From: Rubrivivax sp.
GTDB taxonomy: Bacteria; Pseudomonadota; Gammaproteobacteria; Burkholderiales; Burkholderiaceae_C
Direction: 5' to 3'
Assembly (NCBI GenBank): GCA_031392695.1
Contig: JANMVM010000106.1
Coordinates: forward strand, 697-64,696
DNA length: 64,000 nucleotides
Shown: positions 4,014 to 49,216 of the stretch, piece by piece
Layout of the letters: each line of letters opens with the position of its first letter
How positions within the stretch are numbered: position 1 is the stretch's first letter
Position numbers and translations under genes: made by a program
The notes under the pieces: generated by a model
Told to the model about the DNA's origin: nothing
Database searches by the model: none
Seen by the model: only the letters and a program-made list of their open reading frames with translations

Positions 4014-4979
4014 CTACCTGCAGGCGTTGGCCGCCGTGTACTCCACCACCTTGAGCTTGCCGCTGATGATGTCGGCCCTGGCAGCTTCGACCTGCTGGCG
4101 CATGGCCGCGCTGACGAGCCTGGCGTTGTGCTCGTCCATGGCGTAGTCCAGGCCGCCCTCTTTCAGGCCCAGCGCGGTGATGCCCGGGGTCACGCCCTTG
4201 AAGGCCTGGTAGACCGCGAGATCGGTGCGCTTGACCATGCTCGTGAGCACCGATCCCGGGTGCAGATGGTTCTGGTTGCTGTCGACGCCGATGCTCAGCC
4301 GGCCTGCGTCGGCGGCCGCCTGCATGATGCCCAGCCCAGTGGTGCCGGCAGCGGCGAAAACGACGTCGACGCCACGCGCCATCTGCGCCTTGGTGAGTTC
4401 GGCGCCGCGCGCGGGGTCGGTCCAGGCGGCGGGCGTGGTGCCGGTCATCGATGAGATGACCTCGACCGCGGGCCGCGCGTACTTTGCGCCCTGCTCGTAG
4501 CCGCACAGGAACTTGCGCACCAGCGGGATGTCCATGCCGCCGACGAAACCCACCTTGCCGGTCTTGCTGGCCAATGCGGCCAGCATGCCGACGAGGAAGC
4601 TGCCTTCCTGCTCGCGGTAGACGAAGCTCTGCACGTTGGGCAGCGCCACCACCATGTCGATGATGGCGAAGCGCTGGTTCGGGAAGTCCCGCGCCACGGC
4701 CTCGATGCTGCTGGCCTGCGGAAAACCGATGCCCACCACCGGGTTGGCGCCGCGCTGGGCAAAGCGACGCGCTGCCTGCTCGCGCTGCGCCGCGTTCTGG
4801 ACCTCGAATTCGAGGTAGGGCTTGCCGGTCTCCTTCTTCCAGCGCTCGGCGCCTTGCCAGGCGGCCTGGTTGAAGGACTTGTCGAACTTGCCGCCGAGCT
4901 CGAAGATCACGGCCGGTTGCGCTTGCGCCCCACCCACGGCGAGCAGCCCCGCCACGGCCCACCCGCGCGCCGCCCCCAT
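4014..4979 (-). CDS. BMP/PnrA-family periplasmic substrate-binding protein (nucleoside-type)
   Basis: GGKFDKSFNQAAWQG, FVGGMDIP, GVDSNQN, LTSMVKR motifs. Signal peptide present, no lipobox Cys. Confidence 0.9.
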   Translation of the reverse strand: MGAARGWAVAGLLAVGGAQAQPAVIFELGGKFDKSFNQAAWQGAERWKKETGKPYLEFEVQNAAQREQAARRFAQRGANPVVGIGFPQASSIEAVARDFPNQRFAIIDMVVALPNVQSFVYREQEGSFLVGMLAALASKTGKVGFVGGMDIPLVRKFLCGYEQGAKYARPAVEVISSMTGTTPAAWTDPARGAELTKAQMARGVDVVFAAAGTTGLGIMQAAADAGRLSIGVDSNQNHLHPGSVLTSMVKRTDLAVYQAFKGVTPGITALGLKEGGLDYAMDEHNARLVSAAMRQQVEAARADIISGKLKVVEYTAANACR

Positions 4980-38836: not shown

Positions 38837-40284
38837 ACCCCACGTCCAGTACCTCACCCGCTGCAAGGATCCTGACCTGGCCCGTGGTCATGGCCGGTGG
38901 CTCGGGCACGCGCCTGTGGCCGCTGTCGCGCAGTGGCTTCCCCAAGCAGTTTCTGGTCCTGTCCGGCACCAGCAGCCTGTTTCAGCAGGCCGTCTCGCGC
39001 CTCACGGGCCTGGCCGATGAGCGCATTGAAGTGGCCCGGCCGGTGGTCGTCGGCAATGAGGAACACCGCTTCCTGGTGCTCGACCAGTTGCGCGAGATCC
39101 GGGCCGAGCCCGCAGCGGTGCTGCTGGAGCCGATGGGACGCAATACCGCCCCGGCGATCACCTTGGCAGCGCTGCAGGCCCTGGAAGGTGGCGCCGACCC
39201 GGTGCTGGTCGTGACCCCGGCCGACCAGACGGTGACCGATGGCGCTGCCTTCACGGCGTCGCTGCGGCGCGCGGTGCACGGTGCCGCCGAGGGCGCCATC
39301 GTGATCCTGGGCGTGACGCCGGACCGGCCGGAAACCGGCTATGGCTACGTCCGCGCCGACGGCCAGCGCGTGGCGCAGTTCGTCGAGAAGCCCGATGCCG
39401 TGACGGCGCAGAAGTACCTGGCGGCCGGCGGCTACTACTGGAACGCCGGCATGTTCGTGTTGCGCGCTTCGGTGTGGATGGCGGCGCTGGAGCGCTTCCG
39501 CCCCGATATCGCCACCGCCTGCCGCGCTGCATTCGCGGCGCGCAGCAGCGACGCCGCCTTCGTGCGCCCGGGCAAGGCCGAATTCGCGGCCGTGCCCAGC
39601 GAGTCGGTGGACTACGCGGTGATGGAAAAGTGCCCCGGCGTGCTCGACATCCGCATGGAGCCGTTGGCCGCCGGCTGGAACGACCTGGGGGCCTGGGAAG
39701 CCGTGTGGCAGGTCTCGCCCAAGGACGCGCGCGGCAACGCCCACGTCGGCGACGTGCTCTTCAGCGACTGCGACAACTCGCTGGTCCACGCCACCAGCCG
39801 GCTGGTGGGCGTGGTCGGCCTGCACGACGTCGTCGTCGTCGAGACGCCCGACGCGGTGCTCGTGTCCAGCCGCGAAAAGAGCCAGGACGTGAAGAACATC
39901 GTCACGCGCCTGGGCAGCGAGCAGCGCGGCGAGCACGCGCTGCACCGCAAGGTCCACCGGCCCTGGGGCTGGTACGACGGCATCGACCGCGGCCCGCGCG
40001 ACCAGGTCAAGCGCATCATGGTCAAGCCCGGCGCCTCGCTGAGCCTGCAGATGCACCACCACCGCGCCGAGCACTGGATCGTCGTCACCGGCACCGCCGA
40101 AGTCACGGTGGGCAACAAGGTGATCCTGCTGGCCGAAAACCAGAGCACCTACATCCCGCTCGGTGAGACGCACCGGCTGCGCAACCCCGGCAAGGTGCCG
40201 CTAGAGATCATCGAGGTGCAGTCGGGCAGCTACCTCGGCGAGGACGACATCGTGCGCTTCGAAGACACCTACGGCAGAACATGA
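38833..40284 (+). CDS. manC: Mannose-1-phosphate guanylyltransferase / mannose-6-phosphate isomerase
   Basis: [26 protein letters not shown]-terminal cupin RPWG...[12 protein letters not shown]. Confidence 0.95.
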
Positions 40285-44354: not shown

Positions 44355-45596
44355 TCAGGCTGCGACGGGGCGAGAGGCACACGGCGTCTTGTCGGTCGGC
44401 CGGGAGATCCGGCGCGGCGCCTTGTCGCGCCACAGCCGTCCCAGGGCCTGCACGGCTTGCGGCATCGGCTGGTGGTGGTTGCCAACGAAAAGGCCGTGGC
44501 TGTCCAGGTGCTGCGCGTGACGCAGGACACCATGGATCTGGTGGTCGAAATACTGCACCACCGGGTTCTTGGCGAAGTTGCCGGCGACCACGGGCCGACA
44601 CTCGAAGCCGGCTTGTCGCAGGTCGGCGACCAGTTCGCGCCGCGTCCTGCGCACGCCCGGCTTGATGACGAGACTGAAACCGAACCAGCTGCTGCGGCCG
44701 ATTTCGCGCTGCATCATCAGGCAGGGATGGTCGGCCATCACCGTTTGCAGTTCGCGCGCGTTCTCGCGCCGCGCAGCAATGAGGCCCGGCAGACGCTTGG
44801 CCTGCTCGATGCCGAGCGCCCCCGACATCTCGAGCGGCCGCATGTTGTAGCCCGGCAGCACGAAGCGAAACGATTCCTCGAAGGGATCGGCGCTCTTGGT
44901 GCCGCAGACGTGATTGTGCTCGGGCAGGTTGCGCGTCCAGCCATGCGCCCGCAGGCACAGCATGATGTGGTGGAGCTCCTCGTCGTCGGTCACCACCATG
45001 CCGCCTTCCATGGTCGAGATGTGGTGCGAGAAGAAGGCGCTGAAGCTGCCCATGACACCGAAGGTGCCGGTGTGCTTGCCCCCCAGGGTGGCGCCCATCG
45101 ATTCGCAGTTGTCCTCGATGAGCACGATGTCGCGGCCTGCGGTGAGCGTGCGGATGGCGTCGAAATCGTTGGGGTTGCCCAGCAGGTTGACGGCCATGAT
45201 GGCGCGCGTGCGCGTCGTGATCGCCGTCTGCAGTTGCTCGAGGTCGAAGTTGAGCGTGTGCGGATCGATGTCGACGAACTTCAGGCGCAGCCCATACTGG
45301 TACAGCGGCGAGTAGGTGGTGCTCCACGACACCGCCGGCACGATGACCTCGTCGCCACGCTGCAGCCGCAGCCGCGGATTGCGGGTGAAGAACAGCGCCG
45401 CCACCATCAGCAGGTTGGCCGAGGAGCCGGAGTTGACCATGACGCAGTGGCGGCTGCCCGTGTAGCGCGCGAAGTCGCTCTCGAAGGTGGCCACCCTTTC
45501 GCCCATCGTGAAGTGGCCCTTGGCAATGACCGCCTGCAGGGCCTCGTACTCTTCGGGACCCCAGGAAGACTTGGCCAGCGGGAATCGGAAGTTCAT
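44355..45596 (-). CDS. colD: GDP-4-keto-6-deoxy-D-mannose 3-dehydratase (ColD-like, DegT/DnrJ fold)
   Basis: PLP fold with FSAFFSHHISTMEGG: His at the position of the catalytic Lys, the ColD hallmark. Also FPLAKSSW N-terminus, VNSGSSANL, GYNMRP. Confidence 0.85.
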   Translation of the reverse strand: MNFRFPLAKSSWGPEEYEALQAVIAKGHFTMGERVATFESDFARYTGSRHCVMVNSGSSANLLMVAALFFTRNPRLRLQRGDEVIVPAVSWSTTYSPLYQYGLRLKFVDIDPHTLNFDLEQLQTAITTRTRAIMAVNLLGNPNDFDAIRTLTAGRDIVLIEDNCESMGATLGGKHTGTFGVMGSFSAFFSHHISTMEGGMVVTDDEELHHIMLCLRAHGWTRNLPEHNHVCGTKSADPFEESFRFVLPGYNMRPLEMSGALGIEQAKRLPGLIAARRENARELQTVMADHPCLMMQREIGRSSWFGFSLVIKPGVRRTRRELVADLRQAGFECRPVVAGNFAKNPVVQYFDHQIHGVLRHAQHLDSHGLFVGNHHQPMPQAVQALGRLWRDKAPRRISRPTDKTPCASRPVAA

Positions 45597-46534
45597 GGCT
45601 GCTCCATTGCAAGGAAGTAGGCGTAACAGCGCGCCAGGCCTTCGTCCAGGGTGTGGCGCGGCGCCCAGCCCCAGGCGGTCTGGCGCGACACGTCCACGAG
45701 CTTGCGTTGCATGCCCACCGGGCGACCGAGGTCGTGCCTGAAGTCTCCCGCCCAGCCGACCACGCGGGCCACGGCGGCGTAGTAGTCGTTGACCGAGTGG
45801 TCGCGCCCCAGGCCGATGTTCATCAGCTCGGGCGCGCTGTGGCCCTGACTGACGTGGCGCACCACTGCGTCGGCCAGATCGGCGGCATCCATGAACTCGC
45901 GACGCGCCGTGCCGTCGCCCCAGATGTCGACGCTGCTCGCGCCGCTGCGCATGGCGCGGTGGACCTTGAGCAGCGCGGCGGCCACGAGGTGCGAGCGCTC
46001 GGGCTCGAAGTGGTCGTAGCGGCCGTAGAGGTTGCACGGGATGAGCGTGCGGTACTCCAGCGTCGGCTCCTGCCGTCGCAGGTACATGCACAGGCGTGCG
46101 GCGTAGATCTTGGCCAGGGCGTAACCTTCGTTGGTGGGCTCAAGCTCGCCCTGAAGCACCTGCTCCTCGCGCAGCGGATTCGTACCGCCGCGCGGGTACA
46201 TGCAGGAGCTGCCCAGGTTGATCAGCTGCGGCACGCCGCAGGCCTGCGCCGCGAGGATCACGTTGCGGCCGATGTCGACGTTGCGCACGAGAAAGTCCAC
46301 CGGCCGCGCGATGTTGGCGTGGATGCCGCCGACCAGTCCGGCAGCGTGGATCACTACCTGCGGGCGCACATCGCGCATGAAGGCCTGCACCGCGTCGCCG
46401 CGCTCCAGGTCCAGTTCGGCGCGGCGGGGCGCCATCAGTTGCCAGGCGCGGGCGCCTGCGTGCTCGCTGATGTTGCGGCCAACCATGCCAGCGCCGCCCG
46501 TGAGCAGGACACGCAAGGCTTGCGGCGAGCTCAT
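45593..46534 (-). CDS. GDP-sugar epimerase/reductase (WcaG/Fcl family; ColC-like given ColD adjacency)
   Basis: TGGAGMVG, AGLVGGIHAN, LGSSCMYP, TNEGYALAK, PCNLYG, WGDGTARREF. Confidence 0.88.
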   Translation of the reverse strand: MSSPQALRVLLTGGAGMVGRNISEHAGARAWQLMAPRRAELDLERGDAVQAFMRDVRPQVVIHAAGLVGGIHANIARPVDFLVRNVDIGRNVILAAQACGVPQLINLGSSCMYPRGGTNPLREEQVLQGELEPTNEGYALAKIYAARLCMYLRRQEPTLEYRTLIPCNLYGRYDHFEPERSHLVAAALLKVHRAMRSGASSVDIWGDGTARREFMDAADLADAVVRHVSQGHSAPELMNIGLGRDHSVNDYYAAVARVVGWAGDFRHDLGRPVGMQRKLVDVSRQTAWGWAPRHTLDEGLARCYAYFLAMEQP

Positions 46535-46659
46535 TTCGCCTCCGCGGCCGGCCGGTGGCCGTGCGTGCCAGTCCCGCGGCCTGCGGTAGCCCGGCAAGGA
46601 ACGTCCTGGCCGGTGATGCCGGTGATCAGTGCGGTCTTGCCGCTGCGGGAGGATGTCAT
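46531..46659 (-). pseudogene. gmd: GDP-mannose 4,6-dehydratase remnant (large internal deletion)
   Basis: MTSSRSGKTALITGITGQD (Gmd N-terminus) followed by 23 unrelated codons and a TGA overlapping the downstream ATG. Upstream AAAGGA RBS intact. Confidence 0.8.
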
Positions 46660-46829
46660 CGGGGGGGAGTCCTTTGCTCGGCACCCCCGCGCCGACAGCC
46701 TGGCCCTGGCCTGGCGGGCCCGGACTGAACTGCAGCCGCTGGCTCGCCGGCCCGTCCTGCGCGGAGGTGCTGCCTAGTGTGGTTCGACCCCGCCGTTGGT
46801 GATGCCTCGAGATCGACCTCTTTTCGCGC

Positions 46830-47507
46830 CTAGTTCCGCCGCGGGCGGATGCGAAAGCCGAACTGCAGGAAGCGCGTGTCGCCCTGGCCTCGCAGCGTCG
46901 CCAGCTCAAGCAGCGCCAGCGTCGCTGCCCAGCGCAAGCGCCCAGGCCAGGGGGAATGGGCGATGATGCTGTTGAGCCCCACCAGGGCTTCGACCTCGAA
47001 GCCCTGTTCGACCACGGTGCGCTCAAGACTGCGCGCGGTGAAGAAACGCAAGTGGGTACGGTCGAGCACGCCTTCGTCGGCGTAGGCCCAGTCCTTGTGC
47101 AAGACGAGTTGCAGCAGGTTCGGCAGGTAGCGCACGTTGGGCACCGAGCCGACCATCACCGCGCCCGGCGCCATCTTGGCCTGCACGGCCTGCAGGAAGG
47201 CCTCGGGGTTGGCCATGTGCTCGATGACGTCGTTGCAGATCACGAGGTCGAAATGGCGATCGGGCAGGCGGCTCGCGACGTCTTCGAAGGTGCCGTGGAT
47301 GACCTCGTCCAGCACCGCGCGCGCTTCGTCGGCAGCGCCGGCGGCGGGCTCGATGCCCCAGTAGCTCTGGCGCTGCGGCACCTGGGCTGCAAAGCGCCCG
47401 GCACCGCAGCCGACTTCGAGCACGTGGGTGCTGCGCGCGGGCAGCAGCGCAGCGACTTCAGGGCGCGGGTTGGCGAAGTACGCGGGCTTAGGGCGGTTGG
47501 CTGGCAC
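46830..47507 (-). CDS. Class I SAM-dependent methyltransferase
   Basis: VLEVGCGAG motif I, DLVICNDVIEH, THLRFFT. Confidence 0.88.
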   Translation of the reverse strand: MPANRPKPAYFANPRPEVAALLPARSTHVLEVGCGAGRFAAQVPQRQSYWGIEPAAGAADEARAVLDEVIHGTFEDVASRLPDRHFDLVICNDVIEHMANPEAFLQAVQAKMAPGAVMVGSVPNVRYLPNLLQLVLHKDWAYADEGVLDRTHLRFFTARSLERTVVEQGFEVEALVGLNSIIAHSPWPGRLRWAATLALLELATLRGQGDTRFLQFGFRIRPRRN

Positions 47508-47555: not shown

Positions 47556-49049
47556 TCAGGGCTGCGACGACGCGCGTCGCTGCCAGAGCTGGCGCAGGCG
47601 CAGACGCTCGGCTGGTAGCAGCATCGCCTGCCAGCCGTAGGCAACGAACAGCAGGCCGCCGATGAGCACCACCGCCAGCGCGGCAGCCCAGGTGCGGCAC
47701 GGCTGCGCCGCGGCAAAGAGCGCCCCGGCGACGGCGGCCGGCAGCCCGGCGCGCCACCAGGGCCAGGGCCCGGACACCAGGCTGCGGCGCGCCAGCGCGA
47801 AGACGGCCGCTGCGTCGAGCGCGAAGCGCAGGGTCGCGGCCGCCGCCGTGCCCACGATGCCCCAGCGCGAGGTCAGCGCCCACAGCAGCAGCAGGAACAG
47901 CGGCAGCTCCAGCGCATGCAGCAAGGCCATGTCGCGCGGCCGGCCGGCGGCCTGGATCAGCGTCGCCGGCCCTTGCGTGAGGGCGTTGAGAAACATACCG
48001 ACGATCAGGATCTGCAGGACGGCCGCAGCCTGCGGCCCGATCTCGGGGCCCAGCCACGCGCCCATCGCCGGCTGGGCCAGCGCCATGGCCATGAACATCA
48101 TCGGCAGGCTGGTCAAGAACAGATAGCGGCTGATGTCGGACAGGGCCGCGCCCGCTTGCGGGCTGCGCGGCACCAGGGCCGTGGCGCGCGGGAAGTACGC
48201 CGCCACCACCGCATACGGGACCACCATGATCCTGCTGGCCAGATCGTAGGGCGCCGAGTAGATGCCCACGGCGCGCAAGGGCACGAGGGTGGCGATGAGC
48301 AGTCGGTCGAGGTAGGTCAGCAACGGCCCGATGAGGTTGGACACGCTCATCCAGCCGCCCAGCGCCAGCAACTCGCGCGTGAACTCCCGCTGCGGCCACG
48401 CCGGCCACCAGCGAAAGCCGAAACGGCGCCGGCACGACGCCGCAAAGGCCCAGGTGCCCACCACGCGCAGCGCCAGGATCGTTGCCACCACGACCGGCAA
48501 GTCCACCCCACCGGCCAGCGCCACGGCCAGCGGCAGCGCATAGCTCAGCATGCTGAAGGTCGCCCGGATCAGGTTCAGCGATTTGAAGTCCTGGTGCGCG
48601 GTGAGCACGCCCGCATAGCCGCTGGTCAGCATCACGAAGGGCAGCGACAGCGCCAGCAGCCACAGCGCCTGCAGCGCCTCGGCCTCGAGCGCCGGCGGCA
48701 CCCTCAGCGCGCGCTGCACGAGCCAAGGCGCCAGCAGCGCCGCCGCTGCGCCCATCAACAGCCCGAACAGCAGCAGGAAAGTCAGGCCCGTGCGAGCGCT
48801 GTCCGCGGCGCCGGCCGCGTCGTCGCGCGCCAGCCGCGACGACACGGTGCGGATGACGGCGCGGCCGATGCCCAGGTCGAACAAGCTGGCATAACCGATC
48901 AGCACCCAGGCCAGCGCGATGAAGCCAAAGCGCTCGAGGCCGACGAGCCTGATCAGCCAGGGAATGCAGACCAGTGCTACCGCGAGCGGCAGCACCTGCC
49001 CGGCCAGGTTCCAGGCCGTCCCCGACAGCAGTCGGTGGCCCGGCTTCAC
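47556..49049 (-). CDS. wzx: Wzx flippase
   Basis: WNLAGQ, ERFGFIAL, DLGIG, DRLLIA...GIYSAPY, ~12-14 TM helices. Probable GTG start. Confidence 0.88.
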   Translation of the reverse strand: MKPGHRLLSGTAWNLAGQVLPLAVALVCIPWLIRLVGLERFGFIALAWVLIGYASLFDLGIGRAVIRTVSSRLARDDAAGAADSARTGLTFLLLFGLLMGAAAALLAPWLVQRALRVPPALEAEALQALWLLALSLPFVMLTSGYAGVLTAHQDFKSLNLIRATFSMLSYALPLAVALAGGVDLPVVVATILALRVVGTWAFAASCRRRFGFRWWPAWPQREFTRELLALGGWMSVSNLIGPLLTYLDRLLIATLVPLRAVGIYSAPYDLASRIMVVPYAVVAAYFPRATALVPRSPQAGAALSDISRYLFLTSLPMMFMAMALAQPAMGAWLGPEIGPQAAAVLQILIVGMFLNALTQGPATLIQAAGRPRDMALLHALELPLFLLLLWALTSRWGIVGTAAAATLRFALDAAAVFALARRSLVSGPWPWWRAGLPAAVAGALFAAAQPCRTWAAALAVVLIGGLLFVAYGWQAMLLPAERLRLRQLWQRRASSQP

Positions 49050-49216
49050 GGCCTGCCGCCGCGGCCGTGGCCCGGCCCGCGGATCTGTGTGCAAGGGTGT
49101 CGGCAGGCTTCATCAGCGGCCGCGGCAGCCGATATCCAGAGCACAGACCCGGTAAGCATCGCGCCGCGCCGCCACGCCGGGTCGGGCTCTTCCACGCAAG
49201 TCCGGCGCTGCACCCC

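What the first reader, a model, noticed from the sequence alone, without database searches (positions are those of the whole stretch)
46531..46659. gmd gutted by an internal deletion while RBS, start and stop/start coupling to colC survive
Seen: a 42-aa ORF beginning with the Gmd Rossmann motif KTALITGITGQD and ending in ATGA overlap with colC; Gmd is normally ~340-370 aa. Inference: either the colitose branch is dead (a recent glycan switch, e.g. phage-receptor escape) while colC/colD still look intact, or a gmd elsewhere supplies substrate and the stub persists as a translational-coupling leader.
Basis: partly seen in the sequence, partly recalled or inferred. Interest (0 to 1): 0.62.

Follow-up and report, generated by a model that had tools for sequence, protein, structure and literature searches.

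The report
Gutted gmd: recombination scar before colC
A sugar-pathway gene (gmd) in a freshwater bacterium's slime-coat gene cluster really has been cut down to a 42-codon stub. The stub is an ordinary recombination scar: sister strains of the same species keep the whole gene, so the population probably carries two coat-sugar variants.

Summary
Window 46659..46531 (-) is a 42-codon ORF made of gmd nt 1-58, 35 nt of unassignable sequence and the last 36 nt of gmd. Its TGA overlaps the colC ATG (ATGA).

**Not an assembly collapse.** The same junction occurs in 11 other independent metagenome or MAG contigs.

**New points:**
- Sister strains with flanks 99-100% identical carry an intact 378-aa gmd at exactly this site.
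- Against that allele the net loss is 1008 nt, which is in frame.
- The junction is also the left edge of a 2.2-kb colC-colD block that is highly divergent from the intact-allele strains. dS is 0.6-1.0 inside the block against 0.03-0.06 in the flanks, and omega is 0.11-0.21.
- The stub is therefore a recombination scar, not a simple in-situ deletion.

**State of the pathway.**
- colD (E 1e-158 to E. coli ColD) and colC keep their catalytic residues.
- The 92%-complete genome has manC but no gmd and no fcl.
- The colitose branch is probably substrate-starved (about 0.6). The main rival is a gmd on unassembled DNA (about 0.2).
- I found no support for a selected coupling leader.

This is an ordinary kind of event. 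The scan noted similar gmd and fcl remnants on other genomes before.

The parts
46531..46659 (-). gmd stub ORF (42 codons plus stop). The stop overlaps the colC start as ATGA.
   Evidence: The identical architecture is seen in 11 other contigs.
46602..46659 (-). gmd 5' remnant, nt 1-58 of the gene (start codon through GQD plus the first base of the Gly codon)
   Evidence: 55/58 identical to the intact gmd of L083. The BLAST block ends at 46602.
46567..46601 (-). 35 nt at the joint with no recognisable origin
   Evidence: Identity to the intact allele in register is near chance. The best local hits in L083 (scores 15 and 14 on the two strands) and in the own genome are at noise level.
46531..46566 (-). 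gmd 3' remnant (last 11 codons plus stop), of the divergent 'B' allele type
   Evidence: 25/36 nt identical to the L083 gmd 3' end, in frame. The right-hand BLAST block starts at 46566.
46660..46829 (-). Intergenic region upstream of the stub, holding the gmd ribosome-binding motif AAAGGA. The region is of the resident 'A-like' type.
   Evidence: Collinear and about 97% identical to L083, apart from a 24-nt repeat-unit indel and a longer C-run. No sigma-70 consensus was found.
45593..46534 (-). colC-like gene (GDP-L-colitose synthase candidate, 313 aa)
   Evidence: NF047922 scores 294.8 bits, below its cut-off of 500. Ser/Cys/Tyr/Lys/His align with E. coli GDP-fucose synthase S107, C109, Y136, K140 and H179.
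44355..45596 (-). colD (GDP-4-keto-6-deoxy-D-mannose 3-dehydratase, 413 aa). It has a 22-aa C-terminal extension relative to the intact-allele strains.
   Evidence: E 1e-158 to 2GMS, 3GR9 and related ColD entries, with the SHH motif kept. The extension is shown.
44361..46601 (-). Divergent 'B' block. It is 57-93% identical to the intact-allele strains, except for a 96-100% core inside colC (46367..45768).
   Evidence: Sliding identity. dS is 0.63 for colD and 0.72-0.96 for the colC ends, against 0.03-0.06 for wzx and the MTase.
46830..47507 (-). Class I SAM methyltransferase, the upstream neighbour in the same operon
   Evidence: PF13489, E 2.4e-25
47556..49094 (-). Wzx-type flippase
   Evidence: PF01943 and PF13440
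38881..40278 (+). manC (mannose-1-phosphate guanylyltransferase / PMI). It shows that GDP-mannose supply is retained.
   Evidence: TIGR01479 scores 632.8 bits, above its cut-off, at G000:C325:39577-40974.

Best explanation
The 42-codon ORF is a true remnant of gmd left by a recombination event in a strain-variable exopolysaccharide locus.

**What happened.**
- The resident gene, of the type still intact in sister strains, was cut after nt 58.
- Everything from there to just past colD was replaced by a 2.2-kb divergent colC-colD cassette. That cassette brought only the last 36 nt of its own gmd, plus 35 nt of unassignable joint sequence.
- The product happens to be in frame and ends at the native stop overlapping the colC start.

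**Consequence (inferred).**
- The cell still makes GDP-mannose, because manC is present.
- It has no GDP-mannose 4,6-dehydratase, so ColD and ColC have no substrate and the polysaccharide lacks colitose.
- colC and colD look perfect because they are a recently imported, previously functional allele, not because they are in use.
- Both gmd+ and gmd-stub alleles circulate in the same sampling series. That is a natural glycan polymorphism of the kind usually ascribed to phage or grazer pressure.

**Shown:** remnant anatomy, intact allele, divergence step, absence of gmd from the assembly.
**Inferred:** mechanism of the joint, loss of colitose, selective cause.

**Confidence by part:** about 0.9 that it is a real remnant at a recombination-block edge, and about 0.6 that colitose synthesis is lost.
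For: **The junction is real.**
- It is identical in 11 further independent contigs made by different assemblers and from different samples. These are L015-L020 and L090 with the full stub, and L021-L023 and L094 from 30 nt before the joint.

**An intact allele exists in the same species.**
- L083 and L089 read MTase - gmd (378 aa) - colC (311 aa) - colD (391 aa).
- Their flanks are 99-100% identical to the window.

**Anatomy of the loss.**
- Against that allele, nt 59-1101 are lost and 35 nt gained. The net change is -1008 nt.

**Step in divergence exactly at the joint.**
- dS is 0.03 for wzx and 0.06 for the MTase.
- dS is 0.96 for colC codons 1-56 and 0.63 for colD, with omega 0.11-0.21.
- Identity returns to 100% about 5 nt before the colD stop.

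**Supply of substrate.**
- No gmd in G000, either by the TIGR01472 HMM or by protein search. The only hits are RmlB and a UDP-sugar epimerase-like SDR.
- No fcl paralogue.
- manC is present.

**Context in relatives.**
- gmd is adjacent to colC-colD in about 30 of 33 informative related loci.
- In the only other ColD-bearing genome among 80 of the genus, gmd is adjacent as well.

**Precedent.** Gene remnants at recombination junctions of O-antigen clusters are described in PMC5399914. A dead gmd with a mostly intact fcl is reported for Y. pestis in PMC6422942.
Against: - The genome is a 454-contig assembly, 91.8% complete, so a second gmd could be unassembled. A related genome (G041) has two copies.
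- The donor of the divergent block was not found. L095 and the 120 best Gmd homologues do not match it. The 35-nt joint sequence is unexplained, so the mechanism of the joint is inference.
- Two stub-bearing lineages (window and L094) differ in colC by 17 synonymous and 8 non-synonymous changes, giving omega 0.15. If that divergence arose after the loss, colC is still under selection and something must feed it.
- Against that, the stub itself differs at only 1 of 97 nt between the two. This points to imported variation instead.
- Related loci L046 and L047 carry colC-colD with no adjacent gmd.
Confidence: 0.62

Rival explanations
1. The pathway is alive. A second gmd lies on DNA missing from this fragmented assembly, for example in an O-antigen cluster with fcl, rmd or per. 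It feeds ColD and ColC, and the stub is a neutral scar.
For: - Completeness is 91.8% in 454 contigs.
- gmd occurs in 52 of 80 genus genomes, several with two copies, and G041 has two.
- L046 and L047 have colC-colD without an adjacent gmd.
- omega is 0.15 between two stub-bearing colC lineages.
Against: - No gmd fragment is found anywhere in 5.0 Mb by HMM or protein search.
- No fcl-type partner gene is found either, so a whole second cluster would have to be missing.
- The L094 colC variation looks imported: there is 1 difference in 97 nt of stub against dS 0.077 in colC.
Confidence: 0.2
2. The stub is kept by selection as a short translated leader whose termination at ATGA delivers ribosomes to colC (translational coupling). 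That is why the deletion is in frame.
For: - The net loss is 1008 nt, so the stub is in frame. The ORF is open in all 7 full-length stub contigs, and the ATGA overlap is kept.
- Many relatives also use GAATGA coupling between gmd and colC.
Against: - An in-frame outcome has a one-in-three chance.
- colC has its own GGAGG four nt before its ATG.
- The SD-to-ATG spacer of the stub has grown from 6 to 9-10 nt.
- Three of four stub SNPs are non-synonymous, and SNP density equals that of the intergenic region at 2.4%.
- There is no special RNA fold (z +0.46).
- A leader is pointless if ColC has no substrate.
Confidence: 0.08
3. A plain in-situ deletion (slippage or microhomology) happened inside an already divergent 'B-type' gmd-colC-colD cluster. 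It was later moved into this species by ordinary homologous recombination, with the left crossover in the conserved 5' 58 nt.
For: - The stub length after the joint (71 nt) puts its CCAGGACG in register with CCAGAACG near the 3' end of the gmd of L024.
- Homology between a stub-bearing donor and a gmd+ recipient necessarily ends at nt 58, so a sharp edge is expected.
Against: - The 35 nt after the joint show only chance-level identity, in register, to the conserved DLxxARRxALL-coding segment of every gmd examined.
- No intact gmd with the stub's C-terminus was found among the 120 best homologues.
Confidence: 0.12
4. Assembly artefact: collapse or chimera across strains produced a false junction.
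For: - The sample population holds both alleles.
- L091 and L092 look like left-A/right-B hybrids that could be chimeric assemblies across the 600-nt shared colC core.
- Four Logan contigs break 30 nt before the joint.
Against: - Twelve independent assemblies (MEGAHIT-style k141 contigs, scaffolds, Logan contigs, two MAGs) carry the same joint, each with its own SNPs.
- The 35-nt joint sequence is absent from the intact allele, so no shared k-mer path could create it.
Confidence: 0.02

Closest known systems
Gene remnants at recombination junctions of Wzx/Wzy polysaccharide (O-antigen/EPS) gene clusters, for example the tyv remnant beside abe in Yersinia pseudotuberculosis (PMC5399914)
   Same: - A truncated sugar-pathway gene marks the edge of an exchanged block in a strain-variable cluster.
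- One side is resident sequence and the other is divergent.
- The neighbouring genes are intact.
   Different: - The exchanged block here encodes the same two enzymes (colC, colD) as the one it replaced, so the only functional change is the loss of gmd.
- The donor was not identified.
Inactivated gmd in the cryptic O-antigen cluster of Yersinia pestis, reported as an insertion in gmd with fcl intact in 7 of 8 strains (PMC6422942)
   Same: The first committed GDP-6-deoxyhexose step is dead while the downstream gene still looks functional.
   Different: - There the lesion is a small insertion fixed in a clonal pathogen.
- Here a 1-kb loss at a recombination joint is polymorphic in an environmental population.
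Gmd-ColD-ColC GDP-L-colitose pathway of E. coli O55/O111 and Y. pseudotuberculosis O:6/O:7/O:10 (ColD structures 2GMS, 2R0T, 3GR9)
   Same: - colD is a close orthologue (E 1e-158) with the His-for-Lys active site.
- colC is Fcl-like and translationally overlapped with colD.
- manC is in the cluster.
   Different: - The dehydratase that starts the pathway is missing.
- The host is a Rubrivivax-like betaproteobacterium, and the cluster is an EPS-type locus.
Homology-facilitated illegitimate recombination (one homologous anchor, one illegitimate joint, often with filler DNA). This comparison is from my own knowledge of the literature.
   Same: There is an abrupt joint inside a gene, unassignable filler at the joint, and a homologous stretch (the colC core or downstream flank) that could serve as the anchor.
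   Different: This is not demonstrated. Without the donor sequence, neither microhomology at the joint nor the anchor can be shown.

Membership tests
GDP-mannose 4,6-dehydratase (Gmd; TIGR01472, PF16363) | Full-length SDR of about 340-380 aa scoring above the TIGR01472 cut-off (415 bits) | tested here: not met
   The stub is 42 aa and hits no NCBIfam or Pfam family. The whole-genome HMM search finds nothing above the cut-off.
GDP-mannose 4,6-dehydratase (Gmd; TIGR01472, PF16363) | N-terminal NADP-binding motif TG(I/V)TGQDGSYL | tested here: inconclusive
   TGITGQD is present, but the motif is cut after the Asp codon plus one base.
GDP-mannose 4,6-dehydratase (Gmd; TIGR01472, PF16363) | Catalytic Thr/Glu...Tyr-x-x-x-Lys core | tested here: not met
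   The region (nt 59-1101 of the L083 gene) is absent.
GDP-mannose 4,6-dehydratase (Gmd; TIGR01472, PF16363) | Descent from gmd: same site, same start and same stop as an intact orthologue | tested here: met
   L083 and L089 have an intact gmd between the same MTase and colC. 55/58 nt at the 5' end and 25/36 nt at the 3' end match.
ColD (GDP-4-keto-6-deoxy-D-mannose 3-dehydratase) | Close sequence kinship to characterised ColD, and an active-site His in place of the aminotransferase Lys (SHH) | tested here: met
   E 1e-158 to 2GMS, 3B8X, 2R0T and 3GR9. FFSHHISTMEGG aligns with FYSHHIATMEGG.
ColC (GDP-L-colitose synthase; Fcl-like SDR) | Fcl-like fold with the catalytic Ser, Cys, Tyr, Lys and His (E. 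coli Fcl S107, C109, Y136, K140, H179), and pairing with colD | tested here: met
   The alignment to 1BWS shows all five residues conserved. The gene scores below the Fcl equivalog cut-off. It has a 4-nt overlap with colD. Enzyme activity is not testable here.
Recombination-junction gene remnant in a polysaccharide locus | Intact gene at the same site in close relatives, plus an abrupt step in divergence at the truncation point | tested here: met
   Flanks are 99-100% identical. dS jumps from 0.03-0.06 to 0.6-1.0 at 46601/46602 and falls back at about 44360.
Recombination-junction gene remnant in a polysaccharide locus | Identifiable donor arrangement | tested here: not met
   No contig with the B-type colC 5' end or colD behind an intact gmd was found. 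L091 and L092 are A-left/B-right hybrids of uncertain reality. L095 is only 79-83% identical.

The most novel reading that the evidence does not exclude
The gmd+ and gmd-stub alleles are held in the population by balancing selection driven by phage or grazers. The in-frame, still-coupled stub keeps an undamaged colC-colD pair expressed or ready, so that one recombination with a gmd+ neighbour restores colitose. That would be a recombination-based, reversible glycan switch. Alternatively, ColD and ColC remain under selection in gmd-less cells because they are fed from another source.
Probability: 0.1. Interest if true: 0.5.

Novelty: new member of a known kind. Interest (0 to 1): 0.27.

Why it matters
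This is a clean natural example of how surface-polysaccharide loci vary within one environmental species. Both alleles are on record, and the breakpoints are mapped to the base.

- One recombination event removed the entry enzyme of a rare-sugar (colitose) branch and left the rest of the branch intact.
- It gives a ready-made isogenic-like pair (gmd+ and stub) for testing whether a colitose side branch is a phage receptor or a grazing determinant in freshwater Rubrivivax-like bacteria.
- It is also a caution for pathway inference from MAGs. Intact colC and colD would be scored as 'colitose present' although the pathway has no start.
- It does not reveal a new mechanism.

Tried and rejected
2. 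**A catalytic lesion in ColC.** Tyr172 is polymorphic with His. I first recalled this position as the catalytic His of GDP-fucose synthase. The alignment to 1BWS shows it aligns with H170, not H179, and the H179 equivalent is intact. Rejected.
3. **Origin of the 35-nt joint sequence.**
   - BLAST against the own genome and local alignment to L083 on both strands gave only noise-level hits.
   - In-register comparison with four gmd 3' ends also gave only noise-level hits.
   - A 22/25 match to colD (LPGYN..RPLE) scores no better than the best hit on the opposite strand.
4. **Donor search.** I screened the 120 best Gmd homologues for a C-terminus like the stub's. I also fetched the 91%-identical P0029 locus, L095. 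It is not the donor.
5. **JGI metagenome scan** with the exact 25-mer upstream of the stub returned nothing.
6. **Post-deletion dN/dS.**
   - Within-stub-lineage polymorphism is too sparse: colD has 2 synonymous and 1 non-synonymous change.
   - colC contigs were selected for an identical protein, so they are biased.
   - The L094 comparison is confounded by recombination.
   - The result is inconclusive.
7. **Structured leader.** The RNA fold is not better than shuffles.
8. **Promoter and terminator scan.** Nothing informative.
9. **C192 SDR as a hidden Gmd.** It is a UDP-sugar epimerase-like protein, 28% identical to Gmd. Rejected.

Full report
**The observation**

On the minus strand, window 46659..46531 is an ATG-started ORF of 42 codons: MTSSRSGKTALITGITGQDVPCRATAGRGTGTHGHRPAAEAK*.
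- Its TGA (46533..46531) overlaps the ATG (46534..46532) of a 313-aa Fcl-like SDR.
- That SDR in turn overlaps a 413-aa DegT-family protein by 4 nt.
- The SDR scores 294.8 bits on the GDP-fucose-synthase equivalog, below its cut-off of 500. It keeps the residues that align with E. coli Fcl S107, C109, Y136, K140 and H179.
- The DegT protein matches E. coli O55 ColD structures at E 1e-158 and keeps the SHH active-site motif.

The labels colC and colD are therefore sound. Upstream lie a class I methyltransferase and a Wzx flippase. manC is at window 38881-40278.

**The junction is real**

- Exact look-ups of the ColC protein and of close variants returned contigs from 11 other samples or MAGs. 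These include ENA, Logan and NCBI GCA_043786165.1 records.
- All show the same MTase - 295-nt gap - colC - colD architecture.
- Seven contain the whole stub. Four start 30 nt before the joint.
- They carry their own SNPs: S4T, R5P and P21R in the stub frame, plus one silent change.
- The 35 nt after the joint do not exist in the intact allele, so no k-mer path could fabricate the junction.

**The intact allele exists in the same species**

The 90% cluster of ColC also holds 311-aa variants.
- Their contigs L083 and L089 (about 20 kb each) read GT4 - hypothetical - wzx - MTase - gmd (378 aa) - colC (311 aa) - colD (391 aa).
- From window 51484 down to 46602 the window and L083 are mostly 97-100% identical per 100 nt.
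- The same holds again from about 44360 downwards.

*Anatomy against that allele.*
- gmd nt 1-58 are kept (46659..46602), with 55/58 identical.
- nt 59-1101 are gone.
- 35 nt (46601..46567) match nothing.
- The last 36 nt (46566..46531) are homologous at 25/36, in frame: THGHRPAAEAK* against THGYEQPVEVE*.
- The net change is 1137 - 129 = 1008 nt, or 336 codons.

The intergenic region upstream is of the resident type, apart from a 24-nt repeat-unit indel and a longer C-run. The C-run widens the SD-to-ATG spacer from 6 to 10 nt.

**A recombination scar, not a plain deletion**

The joint is also a step in divergence.

| Segment | dS between the window and L083 |
|---|---|
| wzx | 0.03 |
| MTase | 0.06 |
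| colC codons 1-56 | 0.96 |
| colC codons 256-end | 0.72 |
| colD | 0.63 |

- omega across the divergent segments is 0.11-0.21.
- A 600-nt colC core (46367..45768) is 96-100% identical.
- The divergent block ends abruptly about 5 nt before the colD stop. That stop lies in sequence shared 100% with L083.
- Such divergence under purifying selection cannot have arisen since the flanks last shared an ancestor. One allele's colC-colD block was therefore imported from a divergent lineage, and the left edge of that block is the gmd truncation.
- The stub's 5' part and promoter region are of the resident type, so the resident gmd is what was cut.

*What remains open.*
- I could not find the donor. None of the 120 best Gmd homologues has the stub's C-terminus, and the 91%-identical P0029 locus (L095) is only 79-83% identical to the block.
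- Whether the joint formed by illegitimate end-joining during import, or earlier in the donor, stays open.
- Contigs L091 and L092 join an A-type left side (gmd 3' end) to a B-type right side. They may be true recombinants or chimeric assemblies across the shared core.

**Is the pathway dead?**

- The window's genome (454 contigs, 91.8% complete) has no gmd by the TIGR01472 HMM or by protein search. The only hits are RmlB in the window and a UDP-sugar-epimerase-like SDR on C192.
- It has no fcl paralogue either.
- Among 80 other genomes of the genus, 52 have gmd. Only one (G049) has colD, and there gmd is adjacent.
- Across related loci from genomes and metagenomes, gmd sits next to colC-colD in about 30 of 33 informative cases. 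L041, L046 and L047 are the exceptions.
- By established biochemistry, ColD acts on the Gmd product GDP-4-keto-6-deoxy-D-mannose. A cell without Gmd therefore cannot make colitose.

I put the starved-pathway reading at about 0.6 and an unassembled second gmd at about 0.2.

The one observation in favour of continued use is omega 0.15 between two stub-bearing colC lineages, the window and L094 (17 synonymous and 8 non-synonymous changes). It is weakened because the stub differs at only 1 of 97 nt between them. That suggests the colC differences were imported by recombination.

**The coupling-leader idea**

There is some support.
- The deletion is in frame.
- The ORF is open in all seven full copies.
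- ATGA coupling is the usual arrangement in relatives.

The evidence against it is stronger.
- An in-frame result has a prior of one third.
- colC has its own GGAGG.
- The stub's SD spacer has drifted.
- Stub SNPs are mostly non-synonymous, at the same density as the intergenic region.
- The RNA shows no unusual fold.

I find no positive evidence for selection on the stub.

**Comparison and verdict**

- Gene remnants at exchange junctions are a documented feature of O-antigen and EPS clusters (PMC5399914).
- A dead gmd beside a largely intact fcl is known from Y. pestis (PMC6422942).
- This scan has noted similar gmd and fcl remnants on other genomes.
- The present case is a well-resolved new instance. 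Both alleles are recovered from the same sampling series, 7 gmd+ and 12 stub observations.
- It is useful as a natural pair for testing the ecological role of colitose, but it is not mechanistically new.

Noticed in passing
window 47562-47578 (wzx stop region): A 14-nt tandem duplication (CCCTGAGCCGAGTG) is present twice in every other A- and B-type contig but only once in the window. It sits at and after the wzx stop codon.
   Followed up: partly
window ~46755 (MTase-gmd intergenic region); L083 ~4700-4760: A 24-nt indel made of CCAGCGGG-like repeat units distinguishes the stub allele from the intact allele.
   Followed up: no
window 46662-46671: The C-run between the gmd Shine-Dalgarno motif and the ATG varies. 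The spacer is 6 nt in the intact allele, 10 nt in the window and 9 nt in L090.
   Followed up: no
window 44358-44423: The window's ColD has a 22-aa C-terminal extension beyond the canonical ...LWRD end. Its stop codon lies in flank that is 100% identical to the intact-allele strains. L046 also has an extended tail.
   Followed up: partly
L046 2600-3010; L047 1-210: Two metagenome relatives (ColC 76-78% identical) have wzx followed directly by colC-colD, with no gmd and no stub.
   Followed up: partly
L021, L022, L023, L094 (first base = window 46631): Four Logan contigs from different runs all begin at the 31-mer whose last base is the first base after the joint. This implies a de Bruijn branch there, either another allele or another organism's gmd sharing the 30-mer. 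It is unresolved without reads.
   Followed up: no
L091, L092: These contigs join an A-type gmd 3' end and colC 5' end to a B-type colC 3' end and colD. They are either natural recombinants or chimeric assemblies across the 600-nt shared colC core.
   Followed up: partly
G049:C792:1639-2826: This is the only other ColD match among 80 genus genomes. The match is reported with one in-frame TGA. I did not examine it.
   Followed up: no
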